Shown: piece after piece, positions 1 through 21,436 of the stretch
How positions within the stretch are numbered: position 1 is the first letter of the stretch
Layout of the letters: each line of letters opens with the position of its first letter
Assembly: GCA_920888515.1 (NCBI GenBank)
Contig: CAKKTM010000260.1
Location: 3,837-27,836 of the forward strand
Length of the DNA stretch: 24,000 nucleotides
Source of the DNA: Frankia sp. CiP1_Cm_nod1
Lineage (GTDB): Bacteria > Actinomycetota > Actinomycetes > Frankiales > Frankiaceae
Direction: 5' to 3'
Position numbers and translations under genes: made by a program
The notes under the pieces: generated by a model
Told to the model about the DNA's origin: nothing
Seen by the model: the letters and a program-made list of their open reading frames with translations, nothing else
Databases searched by the model: none

Positions 1-572
1 CGTTCTCGCTGGGGAATACGTCCGCGACGGCCCGGCTGCGCGGCCGGGCCGGTGGGCAGCGATTCCTCTCCATTCTGGCCGCCACCCCTGGATCGCCCGC
101 CCTCCTTAAGCGGCAGGAACGAAACAGCCTGCACATCTTGATCTTTTTGCAGGCCCGCGACCTGTGAAGACGCTCCCGTGAATGCTTTTGTTAGTTCATC
201 ACGACCCCTAAGATCACCGACGCCGACATGCTGCTGACTGTCCAGATAGGTTGCGACGAGCCGCTGGAACACAGCGTTACCCGGATAGCGTCGGATGGCC
301 GCGCGCAGCAGCCTCCGGTAGGGCGCCTCGATGATCCCGGCATCGAATTCGAAGAAGATCTGGCCCCACCACTGTTCCGAGGTGCTGCCCTCCCGGCCCG
401 GGAGGCGTACCCGTGGAAATCCGATCTCATCCAGGACGATCGCCGCGGCGCCCCCTGTCGAGAAAACCGTGGCAATCTCGGTCAGGAAATCGTACCGATC
501 ACGCTGGCTCAGACGGATGTCGGGGCCGTCGGCCGGTGCTCTGGGTGCGTCACCGTACGCAGTCGGTGCCAC
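1..572 (-). CDS. Partial CDS (3' end off the left edge): protein with an N-terminal EAD1-like (effector-associated domain) helical adaptor module
   Basis: Not in the supplied ORF track because it has no in-window stop. My own minus-strand translation is open from 572 to position 1: VAPTAYGDAPRAPADGPDIRLSQRDRYDFLTEIATVFSTGGAAAIVLDEIGFPRVRLPGREGSTSEQWWGQIFFEFDAGIIEAPYRRLLRAAIRRYPGNAVFQRLVATYLDSQQHVGVGDLRGRDELTKAF... The pattern (GFP..lP, WW, helical LL.aa..YPGN near the end) resembles EAD1-type N-terminal adaptor modules as I remember them. The first plausible start is GTG at 572, which overlaps the ThiF 3' end by 64 nt; the start is uncertain. Third codon positions are mostly G/C. Confidence 0.45.
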   Translation of the reverse strand, partial: MAPTAYGDAPRAPADGPDIRLSQRDRYDFLTEIATVFSTGGAAAIVLDEIGFPRVRLPGREGSTSEQWWGQIFFEFDAGIIEAPYRRLLRAAIRRYPGNAVFQRLVATYLDSQQHVGVGDLRGRDELTKAFTGASSQVAGLQKDQDVQAVSFLPLKEGGRSRGGGQNGEESLPTGPAAQPGRRGRIPQRE

Positions 573-1681
573 TGGAAGCGCTCCCCCTCGGTGGTTGTCT
601 GAACGGTCAGGATCTCCCCGGGGGCGATTCCGAGGTCGTGCAGGCGCAGGGCGGGATCGGCGTCGCGGAGCCGTTCGCTGCGCCGGAGCCGTACGGCCCG
701 TCCGCAGCGCCGGCACCGCGGCGGCTGTCCTGGTTGTGCCGGTTGGTGTGGTTGTGCCGGTTGGTGTGGTTGTGCCGTGAGGTGAGCGTGGTTCTCGCCA
801 CAGTGATGGCAGCGTCCCGGGAGGGGGAAGGCCGCCCAGGCCAGTGGTTCCGCGCCGGCGGGCAGGGCTTCGAGCAGGTCGCCGACGGTGGCATGGTGGT
901 CGAGCGGCAGGGGGTGGACGGGTCCGTCCAACGGCCGGTGGTGCGGGCAGTCGGCGTCGCGGGTCAGGGTGACCGGGGCGGTGTCGCCGGTGGCGCCGTC
1001 GATCCGCAGCAGCCGGTACCGCGGCGGGCTGCCGAACAGGACGCGCAGCGCGACCAGTGTTATCCACCCGGCGACGATCGACGTGGACACGATCGACGCC
1101 GGCTGCGGGCCGTCCGGCCGGATCTCGGCGCAGCTCCACGGCAGGTCGGACTCGCCGCGCTGATGCGCGGTGAGCGAGCAGCCGTAGCAGGCCTCGGCCG
1201 GGTCCAGCCGCAGCCGGACCTCCCCGCCCCACGGGTGGGTGCCGCCGTCCACGAGCGCCGCGCCGACCAGCGTGGCCCGCCCGAGCAGGCGTAGCCGGGC
1301 GCGGCGGCTGTCCAGGCAGCCCAGGACGACCCCGGCGTCGGACAGCTCCCCGAGCCCGACCCCGGCGACCAGCTCGGCCGGCCGGGTCTCGACGGTGACG
1401 TCCGGGGCGATCCGGGACAGGGCGCCGGCCGCGGCGGTGGCCTTCGGGCGTCCGACGTCGTCCGGCCCGAGCAGCACGGTGCGGCTGAGGTTGCTCGCCG
1501 CGACCGTGTCCGGGTCGCAGAGGATCAGCCGTCCGACGCCGGCGAGCGCCAGGTTCTTGGCCACCTCGTTGCCGAGCGCGCCGACCCCGACGACCACCGC
1601 GGTGCTGGTGGCGAGCCGCTCCTGGTCCCAGTCGGGGATCAGCCGCTGCCGGGCGTAACGGTCCGCTGACGGTGAGCTCAC
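509..1681 (-). CDS. ThiF/MoeB/E1-like adenylyltransferase with a ~150-aa Cys/His-rich C-terminal extension
   Basis: 390-aa ORF with GTG start at 1681. Superfamily hallmarks: RYARQRLIPDWDQERL, Rossmann GVGALGNEVAKNLALAGVG, DPDTVAASNLSR, GCLDSRRARL, ACYGCSL. The C-terminal part (about 512-964) has CPHH...CHHCG...CRRCG zinc-ribbon-like cysteines, a PHQPAQ x3 repeat (18-bp repeat at 731-777) and a terminal LRLHDLGIAPGEILTVQT segment. Confidence 0.85.
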   Translation of the reverse strand: MSSPSADRYARQRLIPDWDQERLATSTAVVVGVGALGNEVAKNLALAGVGRLILCDPDTVAASNLSRTVLLGPDDVGRPKATAAAGALSRIAPDVTVETRPAELVAGVGLGELSDAGVVLGCLDSRRARLRLLGRATLVGAALVDGGTHPWGGEVRLRLDPAEACYGCSLTAHQRGESDLPWSCAEIRPDGPQPASIVSTSIVAGWITLVALRVLFGSPPRYRLLRIDGATGDTAPVTLTRDADCPHHRPLDGPVHPLPLDHHATVGDLLEALPAGAEPLAWAAFPLPGRCHHCGENHAHLTAQPHQPAQPHQPAQPGQPPRCRRCGRAVRLRRSERLRDADPALRLHDLGIAPGEILTVQTTTEGERFQWHRLRTVTHPEHRPTAPTSV

Positions 1682-1947
1682 CGATCCGCCCCGGCCGGGG
1701 CGTCCGCCAGGTCGGGCGTGGCGCGCACACGCTCATGCCACCGATCCGCCCCGGGCGGGCCGTCCGCACCTGGTTCACCGGCACGCGGGGCGCCCGCGTA
1801 CACGACATCCGTGTGTGGGCCGCCCTCGGGTGGCTGGCCGGCGGGTGGGCCGCCCGTCCGCGCTCCCTGGGCCGTGCTCACCGGGGGCGGTGGATGTACG
1901 CCGCCCTGGGGGACCACGTCCGCCCGCGTTCCGTGGGCCGTGGTCAC
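1678..1947 (-). CDS. Hypothetical small Pro/Gly/Ala-rich protein (89 aa), possibly only a spacer
   Basis: Sub-ORF of track ORF 1678..2082. GTG at 1947-1945 shares GTGA with the stop (1946-1944) of the upstream CDS. Its own stop (1680-1678) shares GTGA with the ThiF GTG start (1681-1679). Product VTTAHGTRADVVPQGGVHPPPPVSTAQGARTGGPPAGQPPEGGPHTDVVYAGAPRAGEPGADGPPGADRWHERVRATPDLADAPAGADR is low-complexity with no recognisable family. Confidence 0.3.
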   Translation of the reverse strand: MTTAHGTRADVVPQGGVHPPPPVSTAQGARTGGPPAGQPPEGGPHTDVVYAGAPRAGEPGADGPPGADRWHERVRATPDLADAPAGADR

Positions 1948-2942
1948 CGGTCCGCCACCCGGTTGAGGGTTACCGGGCAGTGGGTGAGCCCGCCGTCGGG
2001 CCGCCAGTCGTCCCAGCAGGTCAGGCCAGCGACCGGGTCCCGGTGCACGGCCGCCACGCAGACCTCGCGGTACATGCCGCACGGGCAGACCACCACCTGC
2101 TCGCCCGGCCGGAAGGTGTGCCCGCAGACCAGGCAGCCCGCGGCGTCCAGCCCCGGACCGGGCCGGGCGACCTGGGGCGCGTGCGCGGCGAGCCGGACGA
2201 CCGGTACGTCACCGGCCGGCGGCCAGGCGACGAGCAGGCCGGCGGCGAACGCGGCCAGCTCCTCAGCGTCCCCAGACGCGCCGTTCGCGCTGCTCCCGTT
2301 CGCGGTGCTCCCGTTCGCGGTGTCCTTCCCGGCGTTCCCGGTGCCCTCCCTCGCCCCCTTCGCCGCGTCCCTCGAGGTGTCCCGCGCGCTGGCTCCGCCG
2401 GACGCCGGGTGCCGGGCGTCCGGTGTCCCGTCGGCGCAGCGCAGCGCCGGGTCGAGGTGGACGACCGCGGTGGCGTCGCCGATGGCGGCGTCCGCCCGCA
2501 GACGGACCCGGTCCCCGCGGCGGAAGGTGTGCCTGCACCGGGCGCACCGCAGGTGCGTCCACCATGACTCCGAGTGGGTGACAGCGGCCCGGCTCCCGTC
2601 GCGGCCAGGCGGGCCGTCGTCCGCACGGCCCATCGCGGCGCCGGACGGTTGCGGGTCGAGCCCCGCTTCGACCCCGGCGTCGAGCTCAGCCGCCTCGTCG
2701 ACGCCACCCACACCGGCCCCGCCGCCCTCACCCACACCGGCCCCACCGGCCTCACCCACGCCGGCCCCACCGGCCTCACCCACGCCGGCCCCGCCGGCCT
2801 CACCCACGGTGGCCCCGCCGGCCTCACCCACGGCGGTATCGGCAGCGGCGGGCTCACCGGCGGCATCGCCGGCGCGGCCGGCGCGGCCGGCGCCATCGAC
2901 ATCGTCCGCGTCGGTGTCCGCGGGGCCGGAGCTCAGCCGCAC
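1944..2942 (-). CDS. Hypothetical Cys/His-rich protein with an internally duplicated zinc-ribbon / RING-like (treble-clef) module
   Basis: 332-aa ORF with GTG start at 2942. Module A (about 2436-2546): CARCRHTFRRGDRV...AVVHLDPALRC. Module B (about 1977-2135): CLVCGHTFRPGEQVVVCPCGMYREVCVAAVHRDPVAGLTCWDDWRPDGGLTHC. The two share CxxCxHTFRxGxxV and A-V-H-x-D-P...C. The N-terminal 100 aa are VGEAGGAG repeats (24-bp repeat), and the middle has ANGS repeats (15-bp repeat). Confidence 0.6.
   Translation of the reverse strand: MRLSSGPADTDADDVDGAGRAGRAGDAAGEPAAADTAVGEAGGATVGEAGGAGVGEAGGAGVGEAGGAGVGEGGGAGVGGVDEAAELDAGVEAGLDPQPSGAAMGRADDGPPGRDGSRAAVTHSESWWTHLRCARCRHTFRRGDRVRLRADAAIGDATAVVHLDPALRCADGTPDARHPASGGASARDTSRDAAKGAREGTGNAGKDTANGSTANGSSANGASGDAEELAAFAAGLLVAWPPAGDVPVVRLAAHAPQVARPGPGLDAAGCLVCGHTFRPGEQVVVCPCGMYREVCVAAVHRDPVAGLTCWDDWRPDGGLTHCPVTLNRVADR
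2707..2836. repeat. 24-bp tandem repeat, about 5.4 copies, in-frame (VGEAGGAG)
   Basis: cccac(a/g)ccggcccc(g/a)ccg(c/g)cctca repeated head to tail from 2707, inside CDS 1944..2942. Confidence 0.9.
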
Positions 2943-3319
2943 AGCATCTGCTCCGTGGCGCCACCGCCGAGGTCGGCCAGCAGCGCCTCCAGGACGGCCG
3001 GGCGGAACGCGTCACCGAGGATCTCCACCCCGGACCCGGTCACGGTGATCCGCACCCGGACCAGCCGGCCATCCGGATGATCGTCGTATTCGGACGCGTC
3101 GATGAGGTCCGGCAGGGACTCGACGAACGACGGCCCCTCATCACCGGCGGACGCCACCCGCAGGCCGCCGGCCGGCCCCTCGACACCTACGGGCTGCGCG
3201 GGCGCGGCCTCAACCGCGGCCTCGGCCCTGGCCTCGGTCTCAACCGCGCTCCCGGCCTCGGCCCGCAGAGGACCCCTGGTCGTGACGGGCCCGGCGGCCG
3301 GCCCCTCGAGGCCCGGCAC
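2933..3319 (-). CDS. Hypothetical small acidic protein (start uncertain, about 74-128 aa) ending ...ADLGGGATEQMLCG
   Basis: Track ORF 2933..3511 overlaps the radical SAM 3' end, so a later start is likelier. GTG at 3319 lies 5 nt after the radical SAM stop (3326-3324); another in-frame GTG gives VASAGDEG.... The better-looking C-terminal part is PSFVESLPDLIDASEYDDHPDGRLVRVRITVTGSGVEILGDAFRPAVLEALLADLGGGATEQMLCG. The stop (2935-2933) overlaps the next start (2942) by 10 nt. No family recognised. Confidence 0.4.
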   Translation of the reverse strand: MPGLEGPAAGPVTTRGPLRAEAGSAVETEARAEAAVEAAPAQPVGVEGPAGGLRVASAGDEGPSFVESLPDLIDASEYDDHPDGRLVRVRITVTGSGVEILGDAFRPAVLEALLADLGGGATEQMLCG

Positions 3320-3323
3320 GGCC

Positions 3324-4604
3324 TCAGCCGTCAGGGGGCTCCCGCTCCCGTGGCCCGGCGGGGCCGTCGGCCTCTGCGCCGGCTGTCTGGGCTCCTGCAC
3401 CGATCGTCCCCCATCGTCCCGGGACCGGCTGCCCGCAGTGCGGGCAGCGGCCGTGCGTGACCGCGGATTCCAGCGTCTCCCAGATGCCGCGTCGCACCAG
3501 CACGGTGTCACATGTCGGGCAGCGGGTCTGCCGGCCGGCGTCGCCGAGGGCCCGTTCGACGTAGACGAACCGCAGGCCGGCGTCCCGCCCGGCCGCCCGC
3601 GCCGCCGCCAGCGCCCGCGGGCTGGTCGGCGGCGGCCGGCGCATCCGGAAGTCCGGGGTGAAGCGCAGCAGGTGCCAGGGGATGCCCGGGTCGATCCCGG
3701 CGAGGTGGCGGGCGATGGCGCGCAGCGCCTCCGGCTCGGCGGACACCCCCGGGATCAGCGGTGTGGAGACCTCCACCCACACGCCGGCGGCGCGCAGCCG
3801 CTCGACCGCGTCCAGCACGGGACGCAGCGGCGCCCCGGTCAGCCGCCGGTGCGCGGCCTCGTCCGCGGCCTTGACGTCGATGTTCACCGCGTCCAGCGCG
3901 CCCGCGACCAGGTCGATCGCGGACGCGGTGAGGAAGCCGTTCGTCTTCCACACGATCGGCACGCCCGCCGGGGCGGCGAGGGCCGCGAGGTCGAGGGTCA
4001 GCTCCGGGGCGAGCCCGGGCTCGGCGTAGGACATGCCGAGGGACGCGCCGGCCGCCGCCGCCCGCTCGACCAGTTCGGCGGGCCGCGCGGGCCGGCCCGT
4101 CCAGGTGACGCCGTCGACCTGGCCGTACTGGGACAGCCGGTGGTTGACACAGTAGTTGCAGCGGAACGAGCATCCCGGCCCGGCGATCGTGAGCACCCTG
4201 CTGCCCGGCCGGACGTGGTACAGCGGCTTGCGCTCGATCGCGTCGAGGTGCTGGACGGCGAGGGCGTAGGTGGCGGTCTCCAGCACCCCGGCGTGGTTGC
4301 GCCGCACGGCGCACACACCGGTCTCCCCCGGCCCCAGCTCGCACCCGTGCGGGCACAGCAGGCAGCGAATCCGCCGGTCACCCGCGCCGCCGGCCCCGGC
4401 CGCGCCTCCGGCGGACACGTTCTCCCCGGACGGGCCTCCCGCGGACGGGCCTCCCGCGGGCGGGCCTCCGACGGGTTCGCCGAGGACAGCCGCCCGCCAC
4501 ACCGGCCCGCGCGAGCCGTCAGACACGACGCGTCCCAGACGTGTACGGCTGGTGACGATCCAGGTTGCCGGCCTGGTTGTGGGGGTGAGGACGGCGTAGG
4601 GCAT
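3324..4604 (-). CDS. Radical SAM enzyme, AmmeMemoRadiSam-system radical SAM (AmrS) / PflA-like subgroup
   Basis: 426-aa ORF with ATG at 4604. N-terminal CLLCPHGCELGPGETGVCAVRRNHAGVL. IERKPLYHVRPGS is followed by the CxxxCxxC radical SAM motif GCSFRCNYCVNHRLSQ. Further matches: WVEVSTPLIPGVS, IPWHLLRFTPDF, and a C-terminal zinc ribbon CPTCDTVLVRRG...GRCPHCGQPVPGRW. All are typical of AmrS-like proteins. The N-terminal GGPPAGGPSAGGPSG comes from a 15-bp x3 repeat (4428-4472). Confidence 0.85.
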   Translation of the reverse strand: MPYAVLTPTTRPATWIVTSRTRLGRVVSDGSRGPVWRAAVLGEPVGGPPAGGPSAGGPSGENVSAGGAAGAGGAGDRRIRCLLCPHGCELGPGETGVCAVRRNHAGVLETATYALAVQHLDAIERKPLYHVRPGSRVLTIAGPGCSFRCNYCVNHRLSQYGQVDGVTWTGRPARPAELVERAAAAGASLGMSYAEPGLAPELTLDLAALAAPAGVPIVWKTNGFLTASAIDLVAGALDAVNIDVKAADEAAHRRLTGAPLRPVLDAVERLRAAGVWVEVSTPLIPGVSAEPEALRAIARHLAGIDPGIPWHLLRFTPDFRMRRPPPTSPRALAAARAAGRDAGLRFVYVERALGDAGRQTRCPTCDTVLVRRGIWETLESAVTHGRCPHCGQPVPGRWGTIGAGAQTAGAEADGPAGPREREPPDG

Positions 4605-4752
4605 GTCGTCGGTGGCAGGGCCGCGCGGGGTGGGGCACCGCGGTGGGACAGCTGTCGGTGGCGGTTCTCGTCAGTGGCCGGGGAGGGTCGAAAGCGGCGT
4701 GGTCAGCCCTGCCATGCGTTTCCGGAGGAAACATTCCGGTGGATACCTCCAG

Positions 4753-4849
4753 CCGTAGGTGAAAAACGTCATGGCAACAGCGTTTTCCACCTACGGGTTC
4801 CGCGGCCGTAGGTGGAAAACGTCGGATCGGTAGCGGTTTTCACCTACGG
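4753..4849. repeat. Two tandem copies of a ~44-bp palindromic hairpin-forming element (53-bp period)
   Basis: Copy 1 (4753-4796): CCGTAGGTGAAAAACG-12 nt-CGTTTTCCACCTACGG. Copy 2 (4806-4849): CCGTAGGTGGAAAACG-12 nt-CGGTTTTCACCTACGG. Both are locally AT-richer than their surroundings. They straddle the stop codon (4793-4791) of the WD40 gene, so copy 2 encodes its last residues (GENRYRSDVFHLRP). Confidence 0.8.
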
Positions 4850-7739
4850 CTTCCTGCGTTGTGGGGGTGAGGAGGGCGTGGATGGCGGCGGCGAGGGCGG
4901 CCGGGTCGGGATGGGGTGGGAGGTGACGGTGGTAGCGGTTGTCGGGGCTGTGGCTGTGGCCGTGGCCGTGGGTTCGGGTGGGGCCGCTGGTCTGGTTGTG
5001 GCCGGTTTGGTGGGTGTTGCTGGTTCGGTTGTTGGTCCGGTGGGGGCGGGTGGGGGGCTCGTCGCCGGGGGTGTGGGTGGTCAACAGGCGCAGGTGGGGG
5101 CCGAGCGGGAGGGGGTGGTCGTCGGGGAGGTGGTGGTGGGTGAGCAGGACGGTGGTGGGCTGCGGGGTGTGTTCCGCGGTGCGCAGGGCGGTGGCCAGGT
5201 CGGGGGGATCCAGGGTGCGGCTGGTCCAGATGGCGGCGAGGTCGGCCGGGCCGGTCAGCGGGAGCGCCAGGGCGGGCTGGTCGAAAGTGATCAGGGTGGG
5301 GTGGGTGCCGGCGTGCCAGAGGGTGGTGGTCAGCAGGTGCGCGGTCAGGCGCAGGAGGGTTTCGACGGGGCCGTAGGTGGGTGGGCTGGTGTCGAGGATG
5401 ATCGTCACAGGGTGGGGTGGGAGTGTGGGGGTGGTGGTGTGGTGGCGGTAGAGCAGGTCGCCGCGGGCGAGGCGGAGGGTGAACAGGTCGTCGGGGAGAG
5501 CGTGGTGGGTGGGTAGCAGTGCGCGAGGGGTGCCGTGATGGGTGATGCCGGTGCTGCCGGGAGTGTGCGTGCTGGTGATGGCCTGCCCCGTTCCGGCGGT
5601 GGTGAGGGCGGTGACGGTGAGCAGCAGGGTGTGCTGGTAGGTGGGCAGCGGCGGCATGGCCGGGGCGCGGCCGCGCAGGCGGAGCGGGAGGGTGGGGTCG
5701 GTGGCGACGGCGTCGGGGCCGACAAGGCCGAGCAGGCTGGCGAGCTGGGGGGTGATGCCGGCGGCGGCGGTGAGCCGGTCGAGCTGACGGGACGTGAGAG
5801 GTGCCGCTGCCGGGCCGGGCGGGCTGCGCAGGGCGACGGTCAGGGCGTGATGCTGATCGATCGGGGTGCTGCCGGCCGGGGGGATGGCCCGGGGGCCGGC
5901 GGGCAGGTCGGCGGCGAGCAGGGCCGCCAGCCCGACACGGGCGGCCGGCGGCCAGCCCAGCGCCCGCAGCCGGCCGACCCCGGGGTGGGCGGCCAGGGCG
6001 CGCAGCCGCGGGTCGTACAGCGCAGGACCGTCCCCGCCGGGTGGACGCCCGGGGGTGCCACCGTCCGCCGGACGTCCCGGGGCGCCGCCCAGCGGATACG
6101 CCGGCCGGGCTGGCGTGGATGCGGCGCCGGTTGGGCGAGAGGCGACGCCGGTTGAGTGAGAGGCGACGCCGGTTGGGCGAGAGGCGACGCCGGTTGGGCG
6201 AGAGAAGGCGTGAGCCCCTGTATCGGTGGCGATGGCCGCCTCGGTGGTTTCCCCGTCGCCGGTGTCGGCGGTGCCGCTACCGGCGCCGCTTACGCCGTTA
6301 CGGCCGCTGCCGATTATACGGCCGCCAGCAGGGCCACCACCGACAGTGGTGGGATCGGTGCCGACGGGGGCGGCGATGGGCTTGCCGGTGAGGGTGACCA
6401 GGTCCGCGAGCAGGGACAGTGGGGGCCACAGCCCACCGGCTCCCAGCAGGACCAGCCCGGCCGCCGCGGTCCGCAGCGCCGCCGCGGCCGTGCCCACAGC
6501 CGCGGGCACCGAAGATATGACCATGCTGGACGATGTGCCCGTGGACGATGTGGCCATGGTGGACGCCGACAGGCGCGGCACCTCCACCGCCCGCACCGTG
6601 GCGTCGCCGCCGCCGGTGGCGAGCAGGAGCCGGCCCTCCCCGCCGACGGCCCACGCCACCGACCAGACCGGGCCGGGATAGCCGGTGAGGGTGCGCAGGC
6701 AGGTGCCGCCGACCGGGTCCCACACCCGCACCGTGCCGTCGAAGCTGCTGGAGGCGAGTAGCGGAGCCCGGCCGTCACCACCGGCGGCCCACGCAACCGA
6801 ACCGACTCCGTCGGTGTGGCCGGTGAGGGTGTGCAGGCAGGCACCGCTGGCCGGATCCCACACCCGCACCGTGCGGTCGCCGCCGCCGCTGGCGAGCAGG
6901 AGCCGGCCGTCCCGGCCGGTCACCCACGCCACCGTGTCGACCCCGCCGGTGTGGCCGGTGAGAGTGTGCAGGCAGGTGCCGGTCAGGGGGTCCCACACCC
7001 GTACCGTGCGGTCGTAGCCGCCGCCGCTGGCGAGCAGGTGCTGGCCGTCCCGGCCGGTCGCCCACGCCACCGAGTTGACCCCGTCGGTGTGGCCGGTGAG
7101 GTTGCGCAGGCAGCTGCCGGCGAGGGTGTCCCACACCTGCACCGTGGCGTCGCGGCTGCCCGCGGCGAGCAACGGCCGACTGTCACCGCCGGTCGCCCAC
7201 GCCACCGACATGACGCTACGGGTGGGACGGCGGGTCATGGTGTGCAGGCAGGCGCCGGTGAACGGATCCCACACCCGCACCGTCGTATCCTCACTGCCGG
7301 TAGCAAGCAGCAGCCGTCCGTCGCTGTCGGTCACCCACGCTACCGACCAGACTCCGTTGGCATGGCCGGTGAGGGTGTGCAGGCAGGTGCCGGTGAACGG
7401 ATCCCACACCCGCGCCGTGGCATCCTCACCACCGGTGGCAAGCAGCAGCCGCCCGTCCCGCTCGGCCGCCCACGCCACCGACATGACCGGGCCGGTATGG
7501 CCACCGGTCAGGGTGGTCGACGATTCGGCGACAGCGACATCACCTGGCGCCCACGGCTCGTCCCGCCGGGGAGCTGGTTCGGCCGGCCGCGCGTCGTCGG
7601 ACAGGGGTGAGACCCTCGCGGGATCACCCGTGCGGCCCACGGTGCGGGCATGTGTGACCGCCCAGGCGCGTAGGGCGGCGTCCACGGGCGGGGTGGTGCT
7701 CGCCTGACCCGTCGGACCATTCTCCCGCTGCTCGTCCAC
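4791..7739 (-). CDS. Multidomain protein: N-terminal 7-bladed WD40 beta-propeller, low-complexity/hydrophobic linker, degenerate vWA-like domain, His-rich tail
   Basis: 982-aa uninterrupted ORF with GTG start at 7739. It has seven GH..GV.SVAW...DGRLLLA.G..D.TVRVWD blades (6579-7502) and a hydrophobic stretch AAAGLVLLGAGGLWPPLSLLADLV (about 6393-6470). SRPTGVA x4 comes from a 21-bp repeat (6121-6204). The C-terminal VTIILDTSPPTYGPVETLLRLTAHLL...HPTLITFDQP...DPPDLATALRTAEH...TTVLLTHHH (about 5064-5408) follows the vWA strand/helix order. Its MIDAS-like positions are degenerate: DTSPP instead of DxSxS, DPP instead of GGT, THHH instead of TDG. The tail THGHGHSHSPDNRYHRH lies at about 4905-5051. 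Confidence 0.8.
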   Translation of the reverse strand: MDEQRENGPTGQASTTPPVDAALRAWAVTHARTVGRTGDPARVSPLSDDARPAEPAPRRDEPWAPGDVAVAESSTTLTGGHTGPVMSVAWAAERDGRLLLATGGEDATARVWDPFTGTCLHTLTGHANGVWSVAWVTDSDGRLLLATGSEDTTVRVWDPFTGACLHTMTRRPTRSVMSVAWATGGDSRPLLAAGSRDATVQVWDTLAGSCLRNLTGHTDGVNSVAWATGRDGQHLLASGGGYDRTVRVWDPLTGTCLHTLTGHTGGVDTVAWVTGRDGRLLLASGGGDRTVRVWDPASGACLHTLTGHTDGVGSVAWAAGGDGRAPLLASSSFDGTVRVWDPVGGTCLRTLTGYPGPVWSVAWAVGGEGRLLLATGGGDATVRAVEVPRLSASTMATSSTGTSSSMVISSVPAAVGTAAAALRTAAAGLVLLGAGGLWPPLSLLADLVTLTGKPIAAPVGTDPTTVGGGPAGGRIIGSGRNGVSGAGSGTADTGDGETTEAAIATDTGAHAFSRPTGVASRPTGVASHSTGVASRPTGAASTPARPAYPLGGAPGRPADGGTPGRPPGGDGPALYDPRLRALAAHPGVGRLRALGWPPAARVGLAALLAADLPAGPRAIPPAGSTPIDQHHALTVALRSPPGPAAAPLTSRQLDRLTAAAGITPQLASLLGLVGPDAVATDPTLPLRLRGRAPAMPPLPTYQHTLLLTVTALTTAGTGQAITSTHTPGSTGITHHGTPRALLPTHHALPDDLFTLRLARGDLLYRHHTTTPTLPPHPVTIILDTSPPTYGPVETLLRLTAHLLTTTLWHAGTHPTLITFDQPALALPLTGPADLAAIWTSRTLDPPDLATALRTAEHTPQPTTVLLTHHHLPDDHPLPLGPHLRLLTTHTPGDEPPTRPHRTNNRTSNTHQTGHNQTSGPTRTHGHGHSHSPDNRYHRHLPPHPDPAALAAAIHALLTPTTQEAVGENRYRSDVFHLRPRNP
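6579..7502 (-). repeat. Array of 7 WD40 blades (45-46 aa, about 135-138 bp period) with high blade-to-blade identity
   Basis: Blades align almost residue for residue (SVAW, DGRLLLATGG, TVRVWDP, G.CLHTLTGH). Differences concentrate just after GH, at V-x-S, and in the AW-xxxx-DG loop. Confidence 0.85.
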
Positions 7740-7903
7740 GCCGCCTCGCCGCCCCGCCAGTGCTGTCGCCCGCCGACACCTGCCGACGTCGCCCCGCGGC
7801 GATCAGCGTAACCCCGGCGCATGCGGATCAGTTCGGTCAGCCGGCCGCCGGCGGCTGACCGCGACCGGCCAGCGGCCCGTGACAGCCTGGTGACGGTGCA
7901 CTG

Positions 7904-8497
7904 TCAGCGGTCCCGGACGGTGATGCCTGCCAGGATCAGGTGGAGGAAGCGAGTGCTGCCGTCCCTGTCGGGCAGTGCGTTCTCCCGTACCCATGCCGCG
8001 CCGCCGAGCAGGTCGAACAGTTCCTCGGGGGTGAGGTCCGCGCGGACCCGGCCGGCGTCCTGAGCCGCCCGCAGCAGCTCCGCCCCGCAGCGGTGCATAG
8101 CCATGCACACGGCATGTGACGGTGTGCCCTCGTCGTACATGCTCTGCGTCAGGATCTCGACCAGCCCCCGGAAGGTGCTGAAGTGCTCGATGGCGTTGGC
8201 CATCCAGTCCGTCAGCGCGTGGAGCGGGTCGACGCCGTCGGCCCGCATGCCCTCGGCGCGCGCGACAAGCGCCTGCAGACCGTCCCTGGTCGTGGCCTCG
8301 ACCAGACAGGCCCGGGTCGGGAAGTGCCGGTAGAGGGTGCCGATGGCGACCCCCGCCTGGCTGGCGATCTCCTCCAGTGACGCGTCGGAACCGGCGGCGT
8401 CGAACGCCTTGCGCGCGGCGCTGAGGATCGCGTCGTAGTTGCGTCTTCCGTCAGCCCGCTTGGGACGGTGGGCGATGTACGGTACGGCGCCTCCCAT
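7904..8497 (-). CDS. TetR/AcrR family transcriptional regulator
   Basis: HTH region RRNYDAILSAARKAFDAAGSDASLEEIASQAGVAIGTLYRHFPTR is followed by a helical ligand-binding domain. I place the start at the internal ATG 8497 (MGGAVPYIAHRP...) because GAGAGGAGGG (Shine-Dalgarno-like) sits just upstream. The track ORF extends to 8641. Confidence 0.85.
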   Translation of the reverse strand: MGGAVPYIAHRPKRADGRRNYDAILSAARKAFDAAGSDASLEEIASQAGVAIGTLYRHFPTRACLVEATTRDGLQALVARAEGMRADGVDPLHALTDWMANAIEHFSTFRGLVEILTQSMYDEGTPSHAVCMAMHRCGAELLRAAQDAGRVRADLTPEELFDLLGGAAWVRENALPDRDGSTRFLHLILAGITVRDR

Positions 8498-8677
8498 CGG
8501 CCCTCCTCTCGCGTCTCCCCGCTGGCAGCCTGAGCATTTCTCATGTTGGGAGCGCCCGGCAACAGGGATCCGATCATCAGTCGAGACAAACAGGGCGATC
8601 CACGACGTCGGGATGGCAGGGCCACCGGTCCACACGGCCACGCAGCCGGGCGGCCACGCAGCCGGGCGGGAAAGAAG

Positions 8678-9469
8678 TCAGACCTGTCCCGTCACGGCAT
8701 AGTCGAGACTGTCGTTCAGGATGGCGTTCTGGAGTCGGCGCATCGTCTCACCGGGCTCGAGCCCGAGCTCGTCCCGTAGTACCCGCCGGGTGTGCTGGAA
8801 CACCCTGAGCGCTTCGGCGCGGCGGCCCGACCGGTGCAGCGCGAGCATCAGCTGTTCCCGGAAGGCCTCGTGCAGCGGGTGCTCCTCGACCCAGTTCGTC
8901 AGGTCGCCCACCAGCTCACGGTGGCGTCCCGTCCGCAGCAGGCAGTACGCGATCGACTCCAGGCATTCCAGCCGTATCTCCTCCGCCCACCGTACGAAAG
9001 TGGTTGTGGTCGCGCCTCTGCCGATCCCGGCCAGCACGGGCCCGCGGAAAAGCCGCGACGCCGCGGTGAAGCTGACGAGCGCCCGCTCCGGATCAGGCAT
9101 GCGGTTCTCCCGCCCGCGGGCATGCGACACCCGTAGTTCGCAGGTGTCCAGCAAAGCCTCGTCGACCGCGAGCAGATAGCCCTGCGGGTGCGTTACGATC
9201 ACCGCGTTGCGCACCCTGAAATGGGCGAACATCTTACGTAGATGAGAAACGTAGACGTGCAGTCCGGCGCGCGCCCGGCGGGGCCGTTCCTCACCCCAGA
9301 TCTCGCTGATCAGCTCCTCGGAGAAGACCGGGCGGTTCGCGCGGATGAGAAGCACGGCGAGCAGGGTCTCGATTTTGGCCGCGCTGATCGTCCTCGGACC
9401 GTCCCGGTCGCTCACCAGTTGGAGAGGGCCCAGCAACTCGAATCTCACGGCTTCTCTCACGACTTCCAC
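8678..9469 (-). CDS. SARP (AfsR/DnrI/RedD-type) transcriptional regulator: OmpR-like winged helix plus BTAD domain
   Basis: VRFELLGPLQL...ISAAKIETLLAVLLIRANRPVFSEELISEIWGEERP...LHVYVSHLRK is the DNA-binding domain. LECLESIAYCLLRTGRHRELVGDLTNWVEEHPLHEAFREQLMLALHRSGRRAEALRVFQHTRRVLRDELGLEP is the BTAD domain. The start is uncertain. GTG at 9469 has GAGGA upstream; alternatives are GTG 9460, GTG 9448, ATG 9595 and the track start 9661. Confidence 0.8.
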   Translation of the reverse strand: MEVVREAVRFELLGPLQLVSDRDGPRTISAAKIETLLAVLLIRANRPVFSEELISEIWGEERPRRARAGLHVYVSHLRKMFAHFRVRNAVIVTHPQGYLLAVDEALLDTCELRVSHARGRENRMPDPERALVSFTAASRLFRGPVLAGIGRGATTTTFVRWAEEIRLECLESIAYCLLRTGRHRELVGDLTNWVEEHPLHEAFREQLMLALHRSGRRAEALRVFQHTRRVLRDELGLEPGETMRRLQNAILNDSLDYAVTGQV

Positions 9470-9611
9470 AGCCCTGTCCTCTGCCGGATGAAGCCCCGTC
9501 CCGCGCGCAGGACGGGACGGATGTGGATGACGACGGTGCGGCGGGCCGGAGCCCGCTTCGCCTGACGCGGCACCAGCGGCGTGGTCGGGATACATGTGGG
9601 CGGGGTATCCG

Positions 9612-11071
9612 TCAGGCTCTCTCGCCGGCGAGCTCGGGCCGCGTGACCGGCTTCCTGGCACCGGTCAGCCCGAACACGGCCAGCGCGAGCGCTGTCGCGG
9701 TGTAGCCGACGCCGACGTAGAACGCGATCCGGTAGCCGTGGACGACGTCGGTGGCGGTGCCGGCCGTGCCGGCGGTCGCGGCGCCGAACACCGCCACCAG
9801 GATGGCCAGCCCGATCGAGCCGCCCAGCCGCTGCGAGACGTTGAGCACCCCGGCGGCGGCGCCGGCGATGCCGGGTTCCACGTCGGCCAGCGCGATCCGG
9901 GTGACCAGGGCGAACTGCAGCCCGATGCCGGCGCCGAAGAGCGTCATCGGCCCGAGCACGGCCGCGAGGTAGGAGCTGTGCTCGGTGATCCGGGTGAGCC
10001 AGACGGTTGCCGTCAGAGTGGCGGTCGCACCGACGATCAGGACGGGTTTGGCGCCGAACCGTTCGGACAGCCCGGACACCAGTGGGAGAACGCGAAGATC
10101 CCGATGCCCCACGGCACGAACGCCAGCCCGGCCTGGAACGGGGTCAGCCGCAGGATGTTCTGCAGGAACTGGGTGACGAAGAAGAAGATGGCGAAGATCG
10201 ACCCGCCGAGCAGCAGCAGCAGGTTCGCGCTGACCCGGTTGCGGTTGCGGAACAGCGCGAGCGGGGTCAGCGGCGCCTCGGTCCGCCGCTCGACCGCCAC
10301 GAAGGCGACCAGCAGCAGCACACCCACCACGGTCAGCGTCAGCAGTTCGGGCCAGCTGCCGGACGAGCTGCGGATCAGGACGTAGGTCAGCGCGGTGACC
10401 CCGAGGGTGGACAGCAGTGCCCCGGTGACGTCGAAGCGTCCGCCGGCCCGGTCCGACTCACGGATATGGACGGTCGCGAGCGCCGCGACGAACACTCCGA
10501 TCGGCACGTTGACGAACATGGTCCAGCACCAGGAGGCCCATTCTGTGAGCACGCCACCAAGGATCATCCCGACCACGCCGCCGGCCCCGGACACCGCGCC
10601 GTAGACGCCGATGGCCCTGGCCCGGGCCGGCCCGGCGAAGTTGGTGGCGATCAGAGCGAGCGCGGTCGGTGACGCGACCGCGGCACCGACGCCCTGCAGG
10701 GCCCGCGCGGCCACCAGCGCTCCCGCGTTCGGCGCGAGCCCGGCCAGCAGCGAGGCCAGGGTGAACAGCCAGACCCCGGCGAGGAAGACGCGTCTGCGTC
10801 CGAGGATGTCCCCGGCCCGCCCGCCGAGCAGGAGCAGCCCGCCGAAGGTCAGCGTGTAGGCGTTGAGCACCCAGGACAGCCCGGTCGGTGAGAACCCGAG
10901 GTCGAAGCGGATGTCGGGCAGCGCGATGTTGACCACGCTGGCGTCGAGCACCACCATCAGCTGGCTCACCGCGATCGCGGTGAGGAGCAGCGCCGGCCGG
11001 CCGCGCGGAGCCGAGCCGGTGGCCTCGGCGGCAGCGATGGTGGTGGGCGCGCCACTGGGCGAGGCAGCCAT
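9612..11071 (-). pseudogene. DHA2 (EmrB/QacA-type, 14-TMS) MFS drug exporter, interrupted by a 1-nt frameshift
   Basis: ATG at 11071 is preceded by GGAGGG. N-terminal motifs: LLLTAIAVSQLMVVLDASVVNIALP and GRAGDILGRRRVF. Similarity continues to ...AFVPWGIGIFAFS in one frame (track ORF 10037..11683), then resumes as PLVSGLSERFGAKPVLIVG... in the frame of ORF 9612..10112. The switch is at a G/C run at 10084-10086, where one extra C on the coding strand would restore a ~486-aa protein. It could be a real frameshift or a homopolymer sequencing error. Confidence 0.75.
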
Positions 11072-11243
11072 CAGCCCTCCGTTGGCAGTGAGACGTCGGC
11101 AGCGGGAAAGGACGGGAGAGGTTACGGAAGATCGGAGGAGACCCGAGGCCGGTGGGGACTGCCGGGCGCTGGCCGACGAACGCGTGTTCGTGCCCGCCCA
11201 CCGGGTGCTGCTCGGCGTTCTGGGCCGCGCGGCCGGGCGGGGC

Positions 11244-15098: not shown

Positions 15099-15965
15099 TC
15101 AGGCGTCGTCCCGCACCTGTCGGGTGGGCGCTTCCCCGGCCGGGCCGGCCTCCCGGGTGCGGGCCAGCCGGCGGTTGGTGAGCTCAAGCTGGGTCACTGT
15201 GTCGCGGCGCAGCGTCGTGGCCTGCCCGTCGGTGAGCCGGCCGCTGACCCGGTCCCAGTGCAGGGCGACCCACTCCCCCGGTCGCACGTCGGGGGCGAAG
15301 CTGACACCGCCGGTGACGAGCGCGGCCCGCAGCGGCCGGGGCCCGGACAGCCCGAGCCCGCCGTTCTCCCAGGTCAGGCCCGCGGAGCGCACCACGACAT
15401 GATCGCCGTCGCGTTCCGTCACCTGCCCCCAGCGAATCCGGCAGCTGTCCAGCACGTGCAGTGGCCAGGTGGGGTCCGGCGAGTCCAGCAGCCGGGACCA
15501 AGGGTAGACCCCGAAGACGTGGAAGCAGTGGTTCGGCGCGACCTCGTCAAGGATCTGCGGGGTGAGGTGCCGCCAGTACCACCCGGCCTGCGGACCGATC
15601 ACAGCCAGCAGCGCCGCGCCGAACTCGCGGGGGTCGACCGCCTCCGACACGCCGCCGCCGAGCCAGTACGCCTCGACCACCCGGCGGTCGAGCGGGTCGT
15701 CGATACCGGTGAGCCGGGCCAGGATCCGCAGGTACGGCCATGCTCCGTGGAAGCGGCGGGCCAACGCCCGCAGATCACCCCCTGTGGCACCAGCTCCGCC
15801 AGCTCCGGCGGAGTCGGTCGCACTCGCGGCACCCGTCGCACCGGCGGCACCGGCGGTCAGCAGGGCCCGCGGCGCGTCGGCCGGGCCGCAGTAGCCGAGC
15901 TCGTTCGGCGCGTAGGCGTAACGGGCGAACATCCGCGCGCCGTCCTCGTCACGGGGCGCGCTCAC
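15099..15965 (-). CDS. Conserved hydrogenase-cluster-associated protein (DUF6390-like; family name from memory)
   Basis: Only the C-terminal part of track ORF 15099..17162 is credible: MFARYAYAPNELGYCGPAD...FHGAWPYLRILARLTGIDDPLDRRVVEAYWLGG...NHCFHVFGVYPWSRLL...LDSCRIRWGQV...GEWVALHWDRVSGRLT. The start is either GTG 15965 (GTGA overlap with the hypD stop 15964-15962) or ATG 15932. Confidence 0.7.
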   Translation of the reverse strand: MSAPRDEDGARMFARYAYAPNELGYCGPADAPRALLTAGAAGATGAASATDSAGAGGAGATGGDLRALARRFHGAWPYLRILARLTGIDDPLDRRVVEAYWLGGGVSEAVDPREFGAALLAVIGPQAGWYWRHLTPQILDEVAPNHCFHVFGVYPWSRLLDSPDPTWPLHVLDSCRIRWGQVTERDGDHVVVRSAGLTWENGGLGLSGPRPLRAALVTGGVSFAPDVRPGEWVALHWDRVSGRLTDGQATTLRRDTVTQLELTNRRLARTREAGPAGEAPTRQVRDDA

Positions 15966-17062: not shown

Positions 17063-17179
17063 CGGATTCTCCTCGCGGTGACGGCTGACGGCTACGGCCG
17101 GCGAGCCGGAACGATCTGTACGGCAGCGGTGGAACCGGCCGCGGCAGGCGTGGCAGACGCAACGATCCCGGCAGATACG

Positions 17180-17310: not shown

Positions 17311-17318
17311 CGCGGCGG

Positions 17319-21434: not shown

Positions 21435-21436
21435 GG

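What the first reader, a model, noticed from the sequence alone, without database searches (positions are those of the whole stretch)
1..7739. Co-directional cluster of an E1-like adenylyltransferase, duplicated RING-like Zn module, orphan AmrS-type radical SAM, WD40/vWA-like protein and EAD1-like adaptor: candidate undescribed conflict or signalling system
Seven consecutive minus-strand ORFs combine several component types.
- A ThiF/E1-like enzyme with an extra Cys-rich C-terminal domain.
- A protein carrying two copies of a CxxC...C/H module.
- Two small proteins of no recognisable family.
- A radical SAM of the AmrS type, whose family function is unknown.
- A 7-blade WD40 propeller fused to a MIDAS-degenerate vWA-like domain.
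- A protein opening with an EAD1-like module.
From memory of comparative-genomics work on prokaryotic conflict systems, EAD adaptors, WD40 sensor repeats and vWA domains are recurrent parts of NTP-dependent immunity/apoptosis-like systems of multicellular bacteria. Also from memory, E1-like plus RING-like pairs have been predicted as prokaryotic ubiquitin-type systems. I see no E2, JAB/MPN peptidase, MoxR or STAND NTPase in the window, and I do not know this combination (particularly with an AmrS-like radical SAM) as a described system. An alternative reading is a RiPP-like pathway in which the E1-like enzyme activates a peptide C-terminus (as MccB or ThiF do) and the radical SAM modifies it.
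Basis: partly seen in the sequence, partly recalled or inferred. Interest (0 to 1): 0.85.

Follow-up and report, generated by a model that had tools for sequence, protein, structure and literature searches.

The report
Known FtsH–vWA–MoxR conflict system, cut

Summary
The window is Frankia DNA, about 73% G+C. Positions 1-7739 carry six real co-directional minus-strand genes, not seven:
- a WD40(x7)-vWA protein
- an AmrS-like radical SAM enzyme
- a 74-aa peptide
- a double-Zn RING-like protein
- a ThiF/E1 with a C-terminal Zn ribbon
- an EAD1-domain ORF cut by the window edge

The peptide is a strong match to Pfam PF20007, "FtsH ternary system-associated peptide". NCBI names the near-identical Frankia protein [quoted passage not shown].

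In 37 species-representative genomes the RING-E1 pair is followed by EAD1-Ubl-E2, JAB, fvmX1, an FtsH-type AAA+, bpMoxR, fvmX2 and fvmX3. Twenty of those loci also carry the radical SAM and peptide genes. This is the "complex" FtsH-vWA-MoxR ternary system of Kaur, Burroughs, Iyer and Aravind (eLife 2020).

The missing E2, JAB and MoxR are a window-edge artefact. One "small protein" (1678-2082) is an alternate-frame artefact. The other is an over-extended call of the 74-aa peptide gene.

The mechanism remains untested anywhere. Small additions from this work: every complete family member ends in Cys-Gly-COOH, the WD40-vWA/rSAM/peptide module can occur without the ligase genes, and this copy carries several small insertions.

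The parts
4791..7739 (-). WD40(x7) beta-propeller fused to a divergent, MIDAS-degenerate vWA domain: the vWA component of the FtsH ternary system (982 aa).
   Evidence: - Pfam WD40: 7 stretches, E=3e-56.
- The C-terminal ~330 aa are conserved at 32-65% identity in 18 orthologous loci, including Polyangium. The motif is PVTxxLDT[ST]PPT[FY]GPxE with an invariant Asp. The strand-4 Asp is replaced by His here (VLLTHHH).
- AF2 model: core pLDDT 75-90, alpha/beta fold.
- Foldseek top hits are almost all vWA domains, with weak E-values of 3e-3 to 0.3: integrin I-domain, CLCA1, vWF-A3, and the NorD VWA that pairs with the MoxR-type NorQ.
- No sequence-profile hit in the PDB.
4598..4861 (.). Insertion of about 264 nt carrying a nested palindrome (4751-4851). 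It splits the WD40-vWA/rSAM junction and supplies the last ~20 codons and the stop of the WD40-vWA ORF.
   Evidence: - Absent from Protofrankia BMG5.30, where the two genes overlap.
- Arms of 46 nt.
- RNA fold of -58.5 kcal/mol, z=-6.0.
- No copy in the 86 fetched loci and no Rfam family.
3324..4526 (-). AmrS-like (PFL-activase-related) radical SAM enzyme, about 400 aa from the GTG at 4526. The longest ORF starts at the ATG at 4604.
   Evidence: - TIGR04337: 220.1 bits against a cut-off of 220, E=4e-65. PF04055: E=4e-20.
- CSFRCNYC cluster motif and a C-terminal Zn-ribbon CxxC...CxxC, read from the translation.
- The start is inferred from the alignment with BMG5.30.
- Positional orthologue in 20 of 37 full loci.
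2933..3157 (-). 74-aa 'radical SAM-modified peptide, FtsH ternary system-associated' (fvmRadSAM-pep), ending ...EQMLCG-COOH.
   Evidence: - PF20007: E=3.6e-31, 107.6 bits against a cut-off of 27.
- P0126 is 99% identical, 74 aa, and carries the NCBI name.
- The C-terminal Cys-Gly is invariant in 33 loci.
- It is also invariant in all 64 cluster representatives whose match reaches the end of the profile.
- AF2 pLDDT 82, a small alpha+beta domain with no PDB fold match.
1944..2942 (-). Prokaryotic RING-type E3 candidate (332 aa) with an N-terminal 4-ligand Zn module and a C-terminal 8-ligand RING-like module. It is inflated by tandem repeats. Its start overlaps the peptide's stop codon.
   Evidence: - Invariant C13, C16, H42 with nearly invariant H18, C49; and C150, C153, C166, C168, C175, H180, C189, C202 in 20 orthologues.
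- Pfam Prok-RING_1: E=0.005, below threshold.
- RNF24 RING-H2 in the PDB: E=0.45, not significant.
- Positional orthologue immediately upstream of E1 in 37 full loci.
- The GEAGGAGV repeats fall at 2650-2841.
1682..1943 (.). Unusual 262-nt RING-E1 spacer containing a 44-nt direct repeat of the E1 5' leader. It is the source of the spurious ORF 1678-2082.
   Evidence: - The spacer is 30 nt or less in most orthologues.
- Repeat D16 lies at 1664-1707 and 1724-1767, 80% identical.
- The ORF has a non-coding codon-position G+C pattern.
509..1681 (-). E1-like adenylyltransferase (390 aa): ThiF fold plus a C-terminal Zn ribbon and a conserved tail domain.
   Evidence: - PF00899: E=4e-41. It scores far below the ThiF and MoeB equivalog cut-offs (96.7 bits against 275).
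- Invariant GxGxxGN, D56, K80, D124, C165/C168 + C245/H248, candidate catalytic C184, and C291/C294/C323/C326.
- 477 homologues with E of 1e-10 or better; the 120 listed are 53-99% identical.
1..572 (-). 5' part of an EAD1-domain gene (GTG at 572, overlapping the E1 3' end by 64 nt). It is either the EAD1-Ubl-E2 protein or an EAD1-effector; the rest lies outside the window.
   Evidence: - PF19955 EAD1: E=3e-11.
- 55% identical to the N-terminus of the Frankia CiP3 EAD1-Ubl-E2 protein over 100 aa.
- Homology to all relatives ends at about nt 212-243, and G+C falls to 50-58% at 101-250.
- In Frankia Dg1 the gene in this position is EAD1-TIR.

Best explanation
Window positions 1-7739 are the promoter-proximal half of a Frankia copy of the FtsH-vWA-MoxR ('fvm') ternary conflict system. 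It is the complex variant, with three modules:
- a beta-propeller-vWA protein
- a ubiquitin-like tri-ligase module (E1, RING E3, EAD1-Ubl-E2, JAB)
- an AmrS-like radical SAM enzyme with its 74-aa substrate protein

The rest of the system is expected left of the window: the remainder of the EAD1 gene, then JAB, fvmX1, an FtsH-type AAA+, MoxR and fvmX2/3/7.

**How it most likely works.** This is the published hypothesis and is inferred, not shown.
1. The WD40-vWA protein captures a peptide or protein cue.
2. MoxR and the FtsH-type ATPase remodel the complex using ATP.
3. JAB releases EAD1-Ubl from the E2 fusion at a conserved ...AG site.
4. E1, E2 and RING conjugate it to a target.
5. EAD1-EAD1 contacts then recruit an EAD1-tagged effector, which is TIR in Frankia Dg1 and in Cryptosporangium.
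6. In parallel, the radical SAM enzyme modifies the invariant C-terminal ...LCG tail of the 74-aa protein, producing a secondary effector or signal.

**What is shown here:** gene identities, family membership of the peptide, conserved synteny, conserved catalytic and ligand residues, and the terminal Cys-Gly invariance.

**What is inferred:** every biochemical step and the biological role.
For: - The peptide matches PF20007 at E=3.6e-31, and NCBI gives the 99%-identical Frankia protein the same family name.
- Published description of this architecture: PMC7159879, sections 21, 24 and 36.
- Annotated contexts in Frankia CiP3, Cryptosporangium and Streptomyces all show the order WD40 > rSAM > fvmRadSAM-pep > ~210-aa protein > ThiF > EAD1(+YukD-like Ubl+UQ_con) > fvmJAB_N > fvmX1 > AAA > bpMoxR > fvmX2 > fvmX3 > fvmX7.
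- Census of one genome per species: 37 loci carry RING+E1+EAD1-Ubl-E2+JAB+FtsH+MoxR. Twenty of them also have rSAM and peptide, and 12 are strictly collinear as in the window.
- The E2 in orthologues has the HPN motif and a VCLG Cys, and the Ubl ends in a conserved AG.
- vWA fold of the C-terminal domain.
- EAD1 at the left edge, and an EAD1-TIR effector in Dg1.
- The rest of the window (7.9-24 kb) is unrelated: TetR, SARP, MFS and hyp genes.
Against: - MoxR, FtsH, JAB and the E2 are not in the window, and the window's own contig could not be retrieved. Their presence in this genome is an extrapolation.
- The closest relative with a retrievable contig (Protofrankia BMG5.30) has the same chromosomal spot but ends after the peptide gene, with no RING or E1 in the 10 kb that follow.
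- Homology of the left-edge ORF to EAD1-Ubl-E2 genes stops right after EAD1, followed by low-GC DNA.
- The RING and vWA assignments rest on weak scores.
- No experimental study of this system was found.
Confidence: 0.85

Rival explanations
1. RiPP-like or new-tag pathway. The E1 adenylates the C-terminal Gly of the 74-aa protein, as MccB, ThiF or E1 enzymes do. The radical SAM enzyme modifies it, and the product is a natural product or a conjugatable non-ubiquitin tag.
For: - The peptide gene sits between the radical SAM and RING/E1 genes in 12 collinear loci.
- Every complete family member ends in Cys-Gly-COOH.
- SARP, TetR and MFS genes lie just upstream here and in BMG5.30.
Against: - 17 of 37 core loci keep the E1 without rSAM or peptide, and in most of them the tblastn match runs to about residue 360-383 of 390, so the C-terminal domain is retained.
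- BMG5.30 keeps WD40-vWA/rSAM/peptide with no RING or E1 in the 10 kb that follow.
- In Polyangium this trio is divergently transcribed from RING/E1.
- The E1 has no N-terminal peptide clamp.
- The system has its own Ubl with a conserved AG end, an E2 and a JAB.
- The upstream SARP/TetR/MFS genes are not conserved outside Frankia.
Confidence: 0.07
2. The copy in this strain is an eroding remnant that is no longer a working system. This is compatible with the main explanation as to origin.
For: - A 264-nt palindromic insertion uncouples WD40-vWA from the radical SAM gene and replaces the protein's C-terminus.
- The RING-E1 spacer is 262 nt and carries a duplicated leader.
- Homology breaks and G+C drops right after EAD1.
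- Low-complexity repeat expansions occur in RING, vWA and E1.
- A sister lineage shows none of the ligase half beside the peptide gene.
- Other Frankia carry toxin-antitoxin or TIR insertions after E1.
Against: - All six ORFs are open, with codon-position G+C typical of expressed Frankia genes.
- All invariant catalytic and ligand residues are retained in E1, RING, the radical SAM enzyme and the peptide.
Confidence: 0.2
3. Housekeeping sulfur-carrier activation (ThiF or MoeB) together with an ordinary AmmeMemoRadiSam enzyme.
For: Generic ThiF/MoeB and AmrS profile matches.
Against: - The E1 scores 96.7 bits against a cut-off of 275 for ThiF, and 95 against 266 for MoeB.
- No ThiS or MoaD, and no AMMECR1 or Memo gene, among the window ORFs that were scanned.
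- Synteny is with conflict-system genes in 37 genomes.
Confidence: 0.01

Closest known systems
FtsH ternary system, complex variant (vWA-MoxR subsystem 3) of Kaur, Burroughs, Iyer and Aravind, eLife 2020;9:e52696
   Same: - Beta-propeller-vWA protein, E1, prokaryotic RING, an EAD1-fused protein, a Memo/AMMECR1-type radical SAM enzyme and the 'FtsH-associated type' peptide.
- The same gene order as in 12 collinear genomes.
- Found in a filamentous actinobacterium, as the paper reports for this system.
   Different: - Only the 5' half is inside the window.
- This copy has small insertions: a palindrome, a long RING-E1 spacer and repeat expansions.
- Its EAD1 gene diverges right after EAD1.
- No zincin-like metallopeptidase or caspase effector was seen in the window or in the 10-kb flanks examined.
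AmmeMemoRadiSam system radical SAM enzyme (AmrS, TIGR04337)
   Same: The radical SAM enzyme reaches the family cut-off (220.1 against 220 bits) and shares the N-terminal Cys cluster and the C-terminal Zn ribbon.
   Different: There are no AMMECR1 (AmrA) or Memo (AmrB) partners. It is paired instead with a dedicated 74-aa protein that ends in Cys-Gly.
Experimentally studied bacterial ubiquitin-like conjugation systems: CBASS Cap2/Cap3 and Bil/Bub operons (PMC10097602, PMC10557695, PMC11601596)
   Same: An E1-type adenylating enzyme, an E2, a JAB-type peptidase and a Ubl, in a defence-type context. PADLOC E1-E2 and BilD profiles hit the E1 domain.
   Different: - E1 and E2 are separate proteins here.
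- A RING-type E3 is present.
- The Ubl is embedded between EAD1 and the E2.
- The module is coupled to MoxR, vWA, FtsH-type ATPases and a radical SAM/peptide pair.
- No PADLOC model matches the RING, peptide or vWA proteins.
MccB / PaaA-type E1-like enzymes of RiPP pathways
   Same: A ThiF-fold enzyme encoded next to a small gene product that ends in a residue that could be adenylated.
   Different: There is no N-terminal peptide-clamp domain. The peptide is a folded 74-aa domain. The E1 persists in loci that lack the peptide.

Membership tests
FtsH-vWA-MoxR ternary system, complex variant (Kaur et al. 2020) | vWA-domain protein with an N-terminal beta-propeller | tested here: met
   - 7 WD40 repeats.
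- Conserved C-terminal domain with LDT[ST]PP and an invariant Asp.
- AF2 core pLDDT 75-90, with Foldseek hits almost exclusively to vWA domains, though the E-values are weak (3e-3 and worse).
FtsH-vWA-MoxR ternary system, complex variant (Kaur et al. 2020) | MoxR-type AAA+ ATPase (bpMoxR, PF20030) | not testable with these tools
   It would lie left of the window, and the window's contig was not retrievable. It is present downstream of E1 in all 37 full orthologous loci.
FtsH-vWA-MoxR ternary system, complex variant (Kaur et al. 2020) | FtsH-type double AAA+ protein | not testable with these tools
   Same reason. It is present in the 37 full loci and in the Frankia relatives L001, L005, L006 and L010.
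FtsH-vWA-MoxR ternary system, complex variant (Kaur et al. 2020) | E1 of the tri-ligase module | tested here: met
   PF00899 at E=4e-41. Full-length orthologues (about 40-83% identity) sit in the same position in all the core loci.
FtsH-vWA-MoxR ternary system, complex variant (Kaur et al. 2020) | Prokaryotic RING-type E3 encoded next to E1 | tested here: inconclusive
   Positional orthology and 8 invariant Cys/His ligands in the C-terminal module are met. The RING fold itself has only sub-threshold support: Prok-RING_1 at E=0.005 and 17.3 bits against 29.1, and RNF24 at E=0.45.
FtsH-vWA-MoxR ternary system, complex variant (Kaur et al. 2020) | EAD1-Ubl-E2 fusion protein and JAB peptidase | tested here: inconclusive
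   - EAD1 is present at the left edge.
- The Ubl/E2 part and JAB are outside the window.
- After EAD1 the ORF loses homology.
- In Frankia Dg1 the gene in this position is EAD1-TIR.
FtsH-vWA-MoxR ternary system, complex variant (Kaur et al. 2020) | Memo/AMMECR1-type radical SAM enzyme plus the 'FtsH-associated' peptide (PF20007) | tested here: met
   TIGR04337 at 220.1 bits against 220. PF20007 at 107.6 bits against 27. The two genes are adjacent.
FtsH-vWA-MoxR ternary system, complex variant (Kaur et al. 2020) | EAD1-fused effector (caspase, TIR and the like) in the operon | tested here: inconclusive
   There is none among the ORFs scanned in 7.7-24 kb of the window. The truncated left-edge EAD1 ORF could be one.
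AmmeMemoRadiSam system | AmrS radical SAM enzyme co-encoded with AMMECR1 (AmrA) and Memo (AmrB) | tested here: not met
   The radical SAM profile is matched at the cut-off, but no AMMECR1 or Memo domain occurs in any window ORF that was scanned.
ThiF/MoeB sulfur-carrier adenylyltransferases | Score above the equivalog cut-off, with a ThiS or MoaD partner | tested here: not met
   96.7 bits against 275 (ThiF) and 95 against 266 (MoeB). No ThiS or MoaD gene among the scanned window ORFs.
MccB-type RiPP E1-like enzymes | N-terminal peptide-clamp domain on the E1, and a short leader-core precursor | tested here: not met
   The ThiF domain starts at residue 10. The peptide is predicted to be a folded alpha+beta domain at pLDDT 82.
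CBASS type II / Bil / Bub ubiquitin-like defence operons (PADLOC) | Matches to system-specific models beyond the generic E1 domain | tested here: not met
   Only the E1 core (aa ~5-176) hits the E1-E2 and BilD models. The RING, peptide and WD40-vWA proteins give none, and the radical SAM enzyme gives only a weak pVip hit at E=2e-4.

The most novel reading that the evidence does not exclude
The 74-aa fvmRadSAM-pep may not be a mere 'peptide effector'. It could be a new kind of small protein tag or cofactor carrier whose universally conserved C-terminal Cys-Gly-COOH is the chemical business end. One version: a radical-SAM-installed modification or glycyl/thiyl chemistry on the tail, followed by E1-type activation of the terminal Gly. 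That would make it a non-beta-grasp ubiquitin analogue. A second version: the WD40-vWA/rSAM/peptide trio is an autonomous sensor-signal module that can work without the ligase half, as its genomic separation in Protofrankia BMG5.30 and Polyangium suggests.
Probability: 0.1. Interest if true: 0.75.

Novelty: already known. Interest (0 to 1): 0.3.

Why it matters
As a discovery claim it does not stand. The architecture was described in 2020 and is built into Pfam and NCBI annotation.

It still matters in a modest way. The FtsH ternary system is one of the most elaborate predicted prokaryotic conflict systems, combining a full E1/E2/RING/JAB ubiquitin-type cascade, two AAA+ machines and a radical-SAM-modified protein. 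No experimental work on it was found.

This analysis gives three concrete handles for experiments:
- a 74-aa folded substrate whose terminal Cys-Gly is invariant family-wide
- a conserved ...AG end on the Ubl, with a bona fide HPN/Cys E2
- natural variants in which the rSAM/peptide/vWA module and the ligase module are separated

Tried and rejected
- **Source contig.** Exact-sequence look-ups of the window's E1 and of the 99%-identical peptide P0126 both returned 'not on record'. What lies left of the window could therefore not be read.
- **vWA domain against PDB sequences.** The profile search gave no hits. The homologue search for this domain returned only 5 proteins, so the AF2 alignment was shallow and the model only moderate, at pLDDT 64.
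- **Fold search of the peptide model.** Nothing better than E=0.7, so a beta-grasp or ubiquitin-like fold is not supported, and no other fold is assigned either.
- **RING profile against the PDB.** Only non-significant zinc-finger and RING-H2 hits.
- **PADLOC.** Only generic E1 matches.
- **Rfam and promoter/terminator scans of the region.** Nothing found.
- **Searches for further copies.** Neither the low-GC left-edge segment nor the palindrome recurs in the fetched loci.
- **Literature searches** for experimental work on the system or on AmrS-type enzymes acting on peptides found nothing beyond the 2020 paper.
- **Rejected readings:** a housekeeping ThiF/MoeB role; ORF 1678-2082 as a gene; a frameshift in the RING gene, since its C-terminus aligns end-to-end with orthologues.

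Full report
**Observation.** The window is about 73% G+C. Third-codon-position G+C separates real genes from the many spurious ORFs. On the minus strand of 1-7739 there are six credible genes.

- **4791-7739, WD40 protein (982 aa).** Pfam finds seven WD40 repeats.
- **3324-4604 or 3324-4526, radical SAM enzyme.** It reaches the AmmeMemoRadiSam rSAM model exactly at its cut-off (TIGR04337, 220.1 bits against 220).
- **2933-3157, a 74-aa protein.**
- **1944-2942, a Cys-rich protein (332 aa).**
- **509-1681, a ThiF/E1.** PF00899 at E=4e-41 over residues 10-246. It has a C-terminal extension with four invariant cysteines.
- **1-572, an ORF that runs off the left edge.** It starts with an EAD1 domain (PF19955, E=3e-11).

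It overlaps the 3' end of the RING gene. Its only matches are alternate-frame readings of that overlap in close Frankia relatives. It is an artefact. Its last 65 residues match Pfam PF20007, 'fvmRadSAM-pep, FtsH ternary system-associated peptide', at E=3.6e-31.

**Identification.** PF20007 led to Kaur, Burroughs, Iyer and Aravind (eLife 2020, PMC7159879). Their 'vWA-MoxR subsystem 3, FtsH ternary systems' has a complex variant with these parts:
- a beta-propeller fused to a divergent vWA domain that may lack the MIDAS aspartates
- separate genes for E1, a prokaryotic RING-type E3 and a JAB peptidase
- a protein combining EAD1, a Ubl and an E2
- an EAD1-fused effector

NCBI names the 99%-identical 74-aa Frankia protein 'radical SAM-modified peptide, FtsH ternary system-associated'.

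**Synteny.** The E1 has hundreds of full-length orthologues in filamentous actinobacteria. The best match is 99% identical, from Frankia sp. CiP1_Cm_nod2. Annotated contexts in Frankia CiP3, Cryptosporangium phraense and Streptomyces all show the same order: WD40 > Radical_SAM > fvmRadSAM-pep > ~210-aa protein > ThiF > EAD1 (+YukD-like Ubl + UQ_con) > fvmJAB_N > fvmX1 > AAA > bpMoxR > fvmX2 > fvmX3 > fvmX7.

I scanned one genome per species, which gave 80 loci with 10-kb flanks, and searched them with all components by tblastn.
- 37 loci carry the full core: RING, E1, EAD1-Ubl-E2, JAB, FtsH-type AAA+ and MoxR.
- 20 of these also have the radical SAM and peptide genes.
- 12 are strictly collinear with the window.
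- Every other peptide-bearing locus from this scan also has RING and E1 beside it but is cut short by a contig end.

The rest of the window (7.9-24 kb) holds TetR, SARP, MFS, an FAD monooxygenase, DUF3237 and hydrogenase-maturation hyp genes. It is unrelated.

**Component checks.**
- **vWA.** The C-terminal ~330 residues of the WD40 protein are conserved in 18 other loci, including Polyangium. The motif PVTxxLDT[ST]PPT[FY]GPxE has an invariant Asp. The second MIDAS Asp is replaced here (VLLTHHH). A sequence profile finds nothing in the PDB. An AF2 model from a shallow alignment has overall pLDDT 64 and a core of 75-90. Its Foldseek hits are almost only vWA domains, at weak E-values. They include the NorD VWA bound to the MoxR-type NorQ. 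'MIDAS-degenerate vWA-like' is therefore supported.
- **RING.** The family has an N-terminal module with 4 conserved ligands and a C-terminal module with 8 invariant Cys/His, both opening with CxxCxHTFRxG[DE]. Matches to Prok-RING_1 (E=0.005) and RING-H2 RNF24 (E=0.45) are sub-threshold. The fold assignment stays inconclusive, although positional orthology is clear.
- **E1.** It retains the nucleotide-binding and Zn-site residues and a candidate catalytic Cys184. It scores far below the ThiF and MoeB equivalog cut-offs.
- **Ubl and E2 in orthologous loci.** The Ubl ends in a conserved ...AG. The E2 has the HPN motif and a VCLG cysteine.

**The peptide.** In 33 loci the product ends ...[E/Q]QMLCG-stop. 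An exhaustive HMMER search of 1.84 billion cluster representatives found only 78 matches. All 64 whose match reaches the end of the profile terminate in Cys-Gly. AF2 predicts a small alpha+beta domain at pLDDT 82, with the tail at the C-terminus. It has no PDB fold match and no detectable beta-grasp. The terminal Cys-Gly is the most likely target of the radical SAM enzyme. This is an inference.

**Modularity and state of this copy.**
- In Protofrankia BMG5.30 the same chromosomal spot (MFS-SARP-TetR-WD40-rSAM-peptide) aligns at 83-94% nucleotide identity. Homology ends exactly at the peptide's stop codon, and no RING, E1 or EAD1 gene follows.
- In Polyangium the WD40-vWA/rSAM/peptide trio is transcribed divergently from RING-E1.
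- 17 of 37 core loci lack rSAM and peptide yet keep the E1, mostly with its C-terminal domain.

Together these argue that the peptide belongs functionally with the vWA protein and the radical SAM enzyme rather than with the E1.

The window's copy also shows signs of wear:
- a ~264-nt insertion with a strong nested palindrome (-58.5 kcal/mol, z=-6) between the WD40-vWA and radical SAM genes, which overlap in BMG5.30
- a 262-nt RING-E1 spacer with a duplicated leader, where most orthologues have 30 nt or less
- several tandem-repeat expansions
- loss of homology and a drop to 50-58% G+C right after the EAD1 domain at the left edge

In Frankia Dg1 the gene directly after E1 is an EAD1-TIR effector (TIR_2, E=8e-30). 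In Frankia CiP3, HicA and PemK toxin modules are inserted at that point. The truncated left-edge ORF may therefore be either the EAD1-Ubl-E2 protein or an EAD1-effector.

**Mechanism.** I adopt the published model (PMC7159879, sections 8, 21, 24, 30 and 36), marking every step as inferred.
1. The WD40-vWA protein binds a cue.
2. MoxR and the FtsH-type ATPase remodel the complex.
3. JAB frees EAD1-Ubl.
4. E1, E2 and RING conjugate it.
5. EAD1-EAD1 pairing recruits the effector.
6. The radical-SAM-modified 74-aa protein acts as an additional effector or signal.

No experimental study was found.

**Verdict.** The interpretation as a conflict system agrees with the literature, but the novelty claim fails. 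The cluster is an ordinary, edge-truncated and slightly battered member of a described, already annotated system. Interest is low to moderate. What remains of value is that the system is biochemically unexplored, and that the invariant Cys-Gly tail and the natural module separations give clear experimental entry points.

Noticed in passing
window 4598-4861 (hairpin 4751-4851): A ~264-nt insertion with four copies of CCGTAGGTG(G/A)AAAACG in an IR-IR arrangement. It folds at -58.5 kcal/mol (z=-6). It is absent from Protofrankia BMG5.30 and splits the normally overlapping WD40-vWA/rSAM junction. It looks like a MITE or REP element. No copies occur in the 86 fetched loci and there is no Rfam hit.
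   Followed up: partly
window 1682-1943 (repeat 1664-1707 / 1724-1767): The RING-E1 intergenic spacer is 262 nt, where most orthologues have 30 nt or less. It contains an 80%-identical 44-nt direct repeat of the E1 leader and start region.
   Followed up: partly
window 1-250: Right after the EAD1 domain, homology to all Frankia EAD1 genes stops at about nt 212-243 and G+C falls to 50-58% at 101-250. The remaining 80 codons match nothing fetched. This could be a recombination or insertion breakpoint, or a swapped effector.
   Followed up: partly
L085/L086 (Protofrankia sp. BMG5.30) against window 2935-11105: The syntenic region MFS-SARP-TetR-WD40-rSAM-peptide is 83-94% identical, but homology ends exactly at the peptide's stop codon. 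No RING, E1 or EAD1 gene follows; an acetyltransferase, a DyP peroxidase and FTR1 genes do. This is a natural separation of the rSAM/peptide/vWA module from the ligase module.
   Followed up: partly
L005 3275-3860 (Frankia symbiont of Datisca glomerata Dg1); L001 3977-5580 (Frankia CiP3): The E1 / EAD1-gene junction is an insertion hot spot in Frankia. Dg1 has an EAD1-TIR_2 effector gene directly after E1, followed about 2.7 kb later by the EAD1-Ubl-E2 gene. CiP3 has HicA and PemK toxin modules there.
   Followed up: partly
window 2933-2950 (C-terminus of the 74-aa protein); P0155, P0200-P0276: All 64 complete members of the PF20007 family, found among 1.84 billion cluster representatives, end in Cys-Gly-COOH (mostly ...[QR]MLCG). 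The family is rare: 78 clusters in total.
   Followed up: yes
window 2650-2841, 6118-6201, about 4950-5070, about 690-740: Short in-frame tandem repeats and low-complexity inserts inflate several proteins of this copy: GEAGGAGV x5 in RING, RPTGVAS x4 and a Thr/His/Pro-rich insert in the vWA protein, and AQPHQP x3 between the two CxxC pairs of the E1 Zn ribbon.
   Followed up: no
L028, L030, L031, L033, L034 (Polyangium spp.): In these myxobacteria the WD40-vWA, radical SAM and peptide genes lie on the opposite strand, divergent from RING-E1. In L013, L026 and L027 the radical SAM gene is separated from the peptide gene by the vWA gene.
   Followed up: no
window 15962-23998: A hydrogenase-maturation cluster on the minus strand: hypD, hypC, a hypE-like AIRS protein, a SIS-domain protein and hypF. 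It has conspicuous 9- and 15-nt tandem repeats at 19147-19218 and 19825-20094. It is unrelated to the finding.
   Followed up: no
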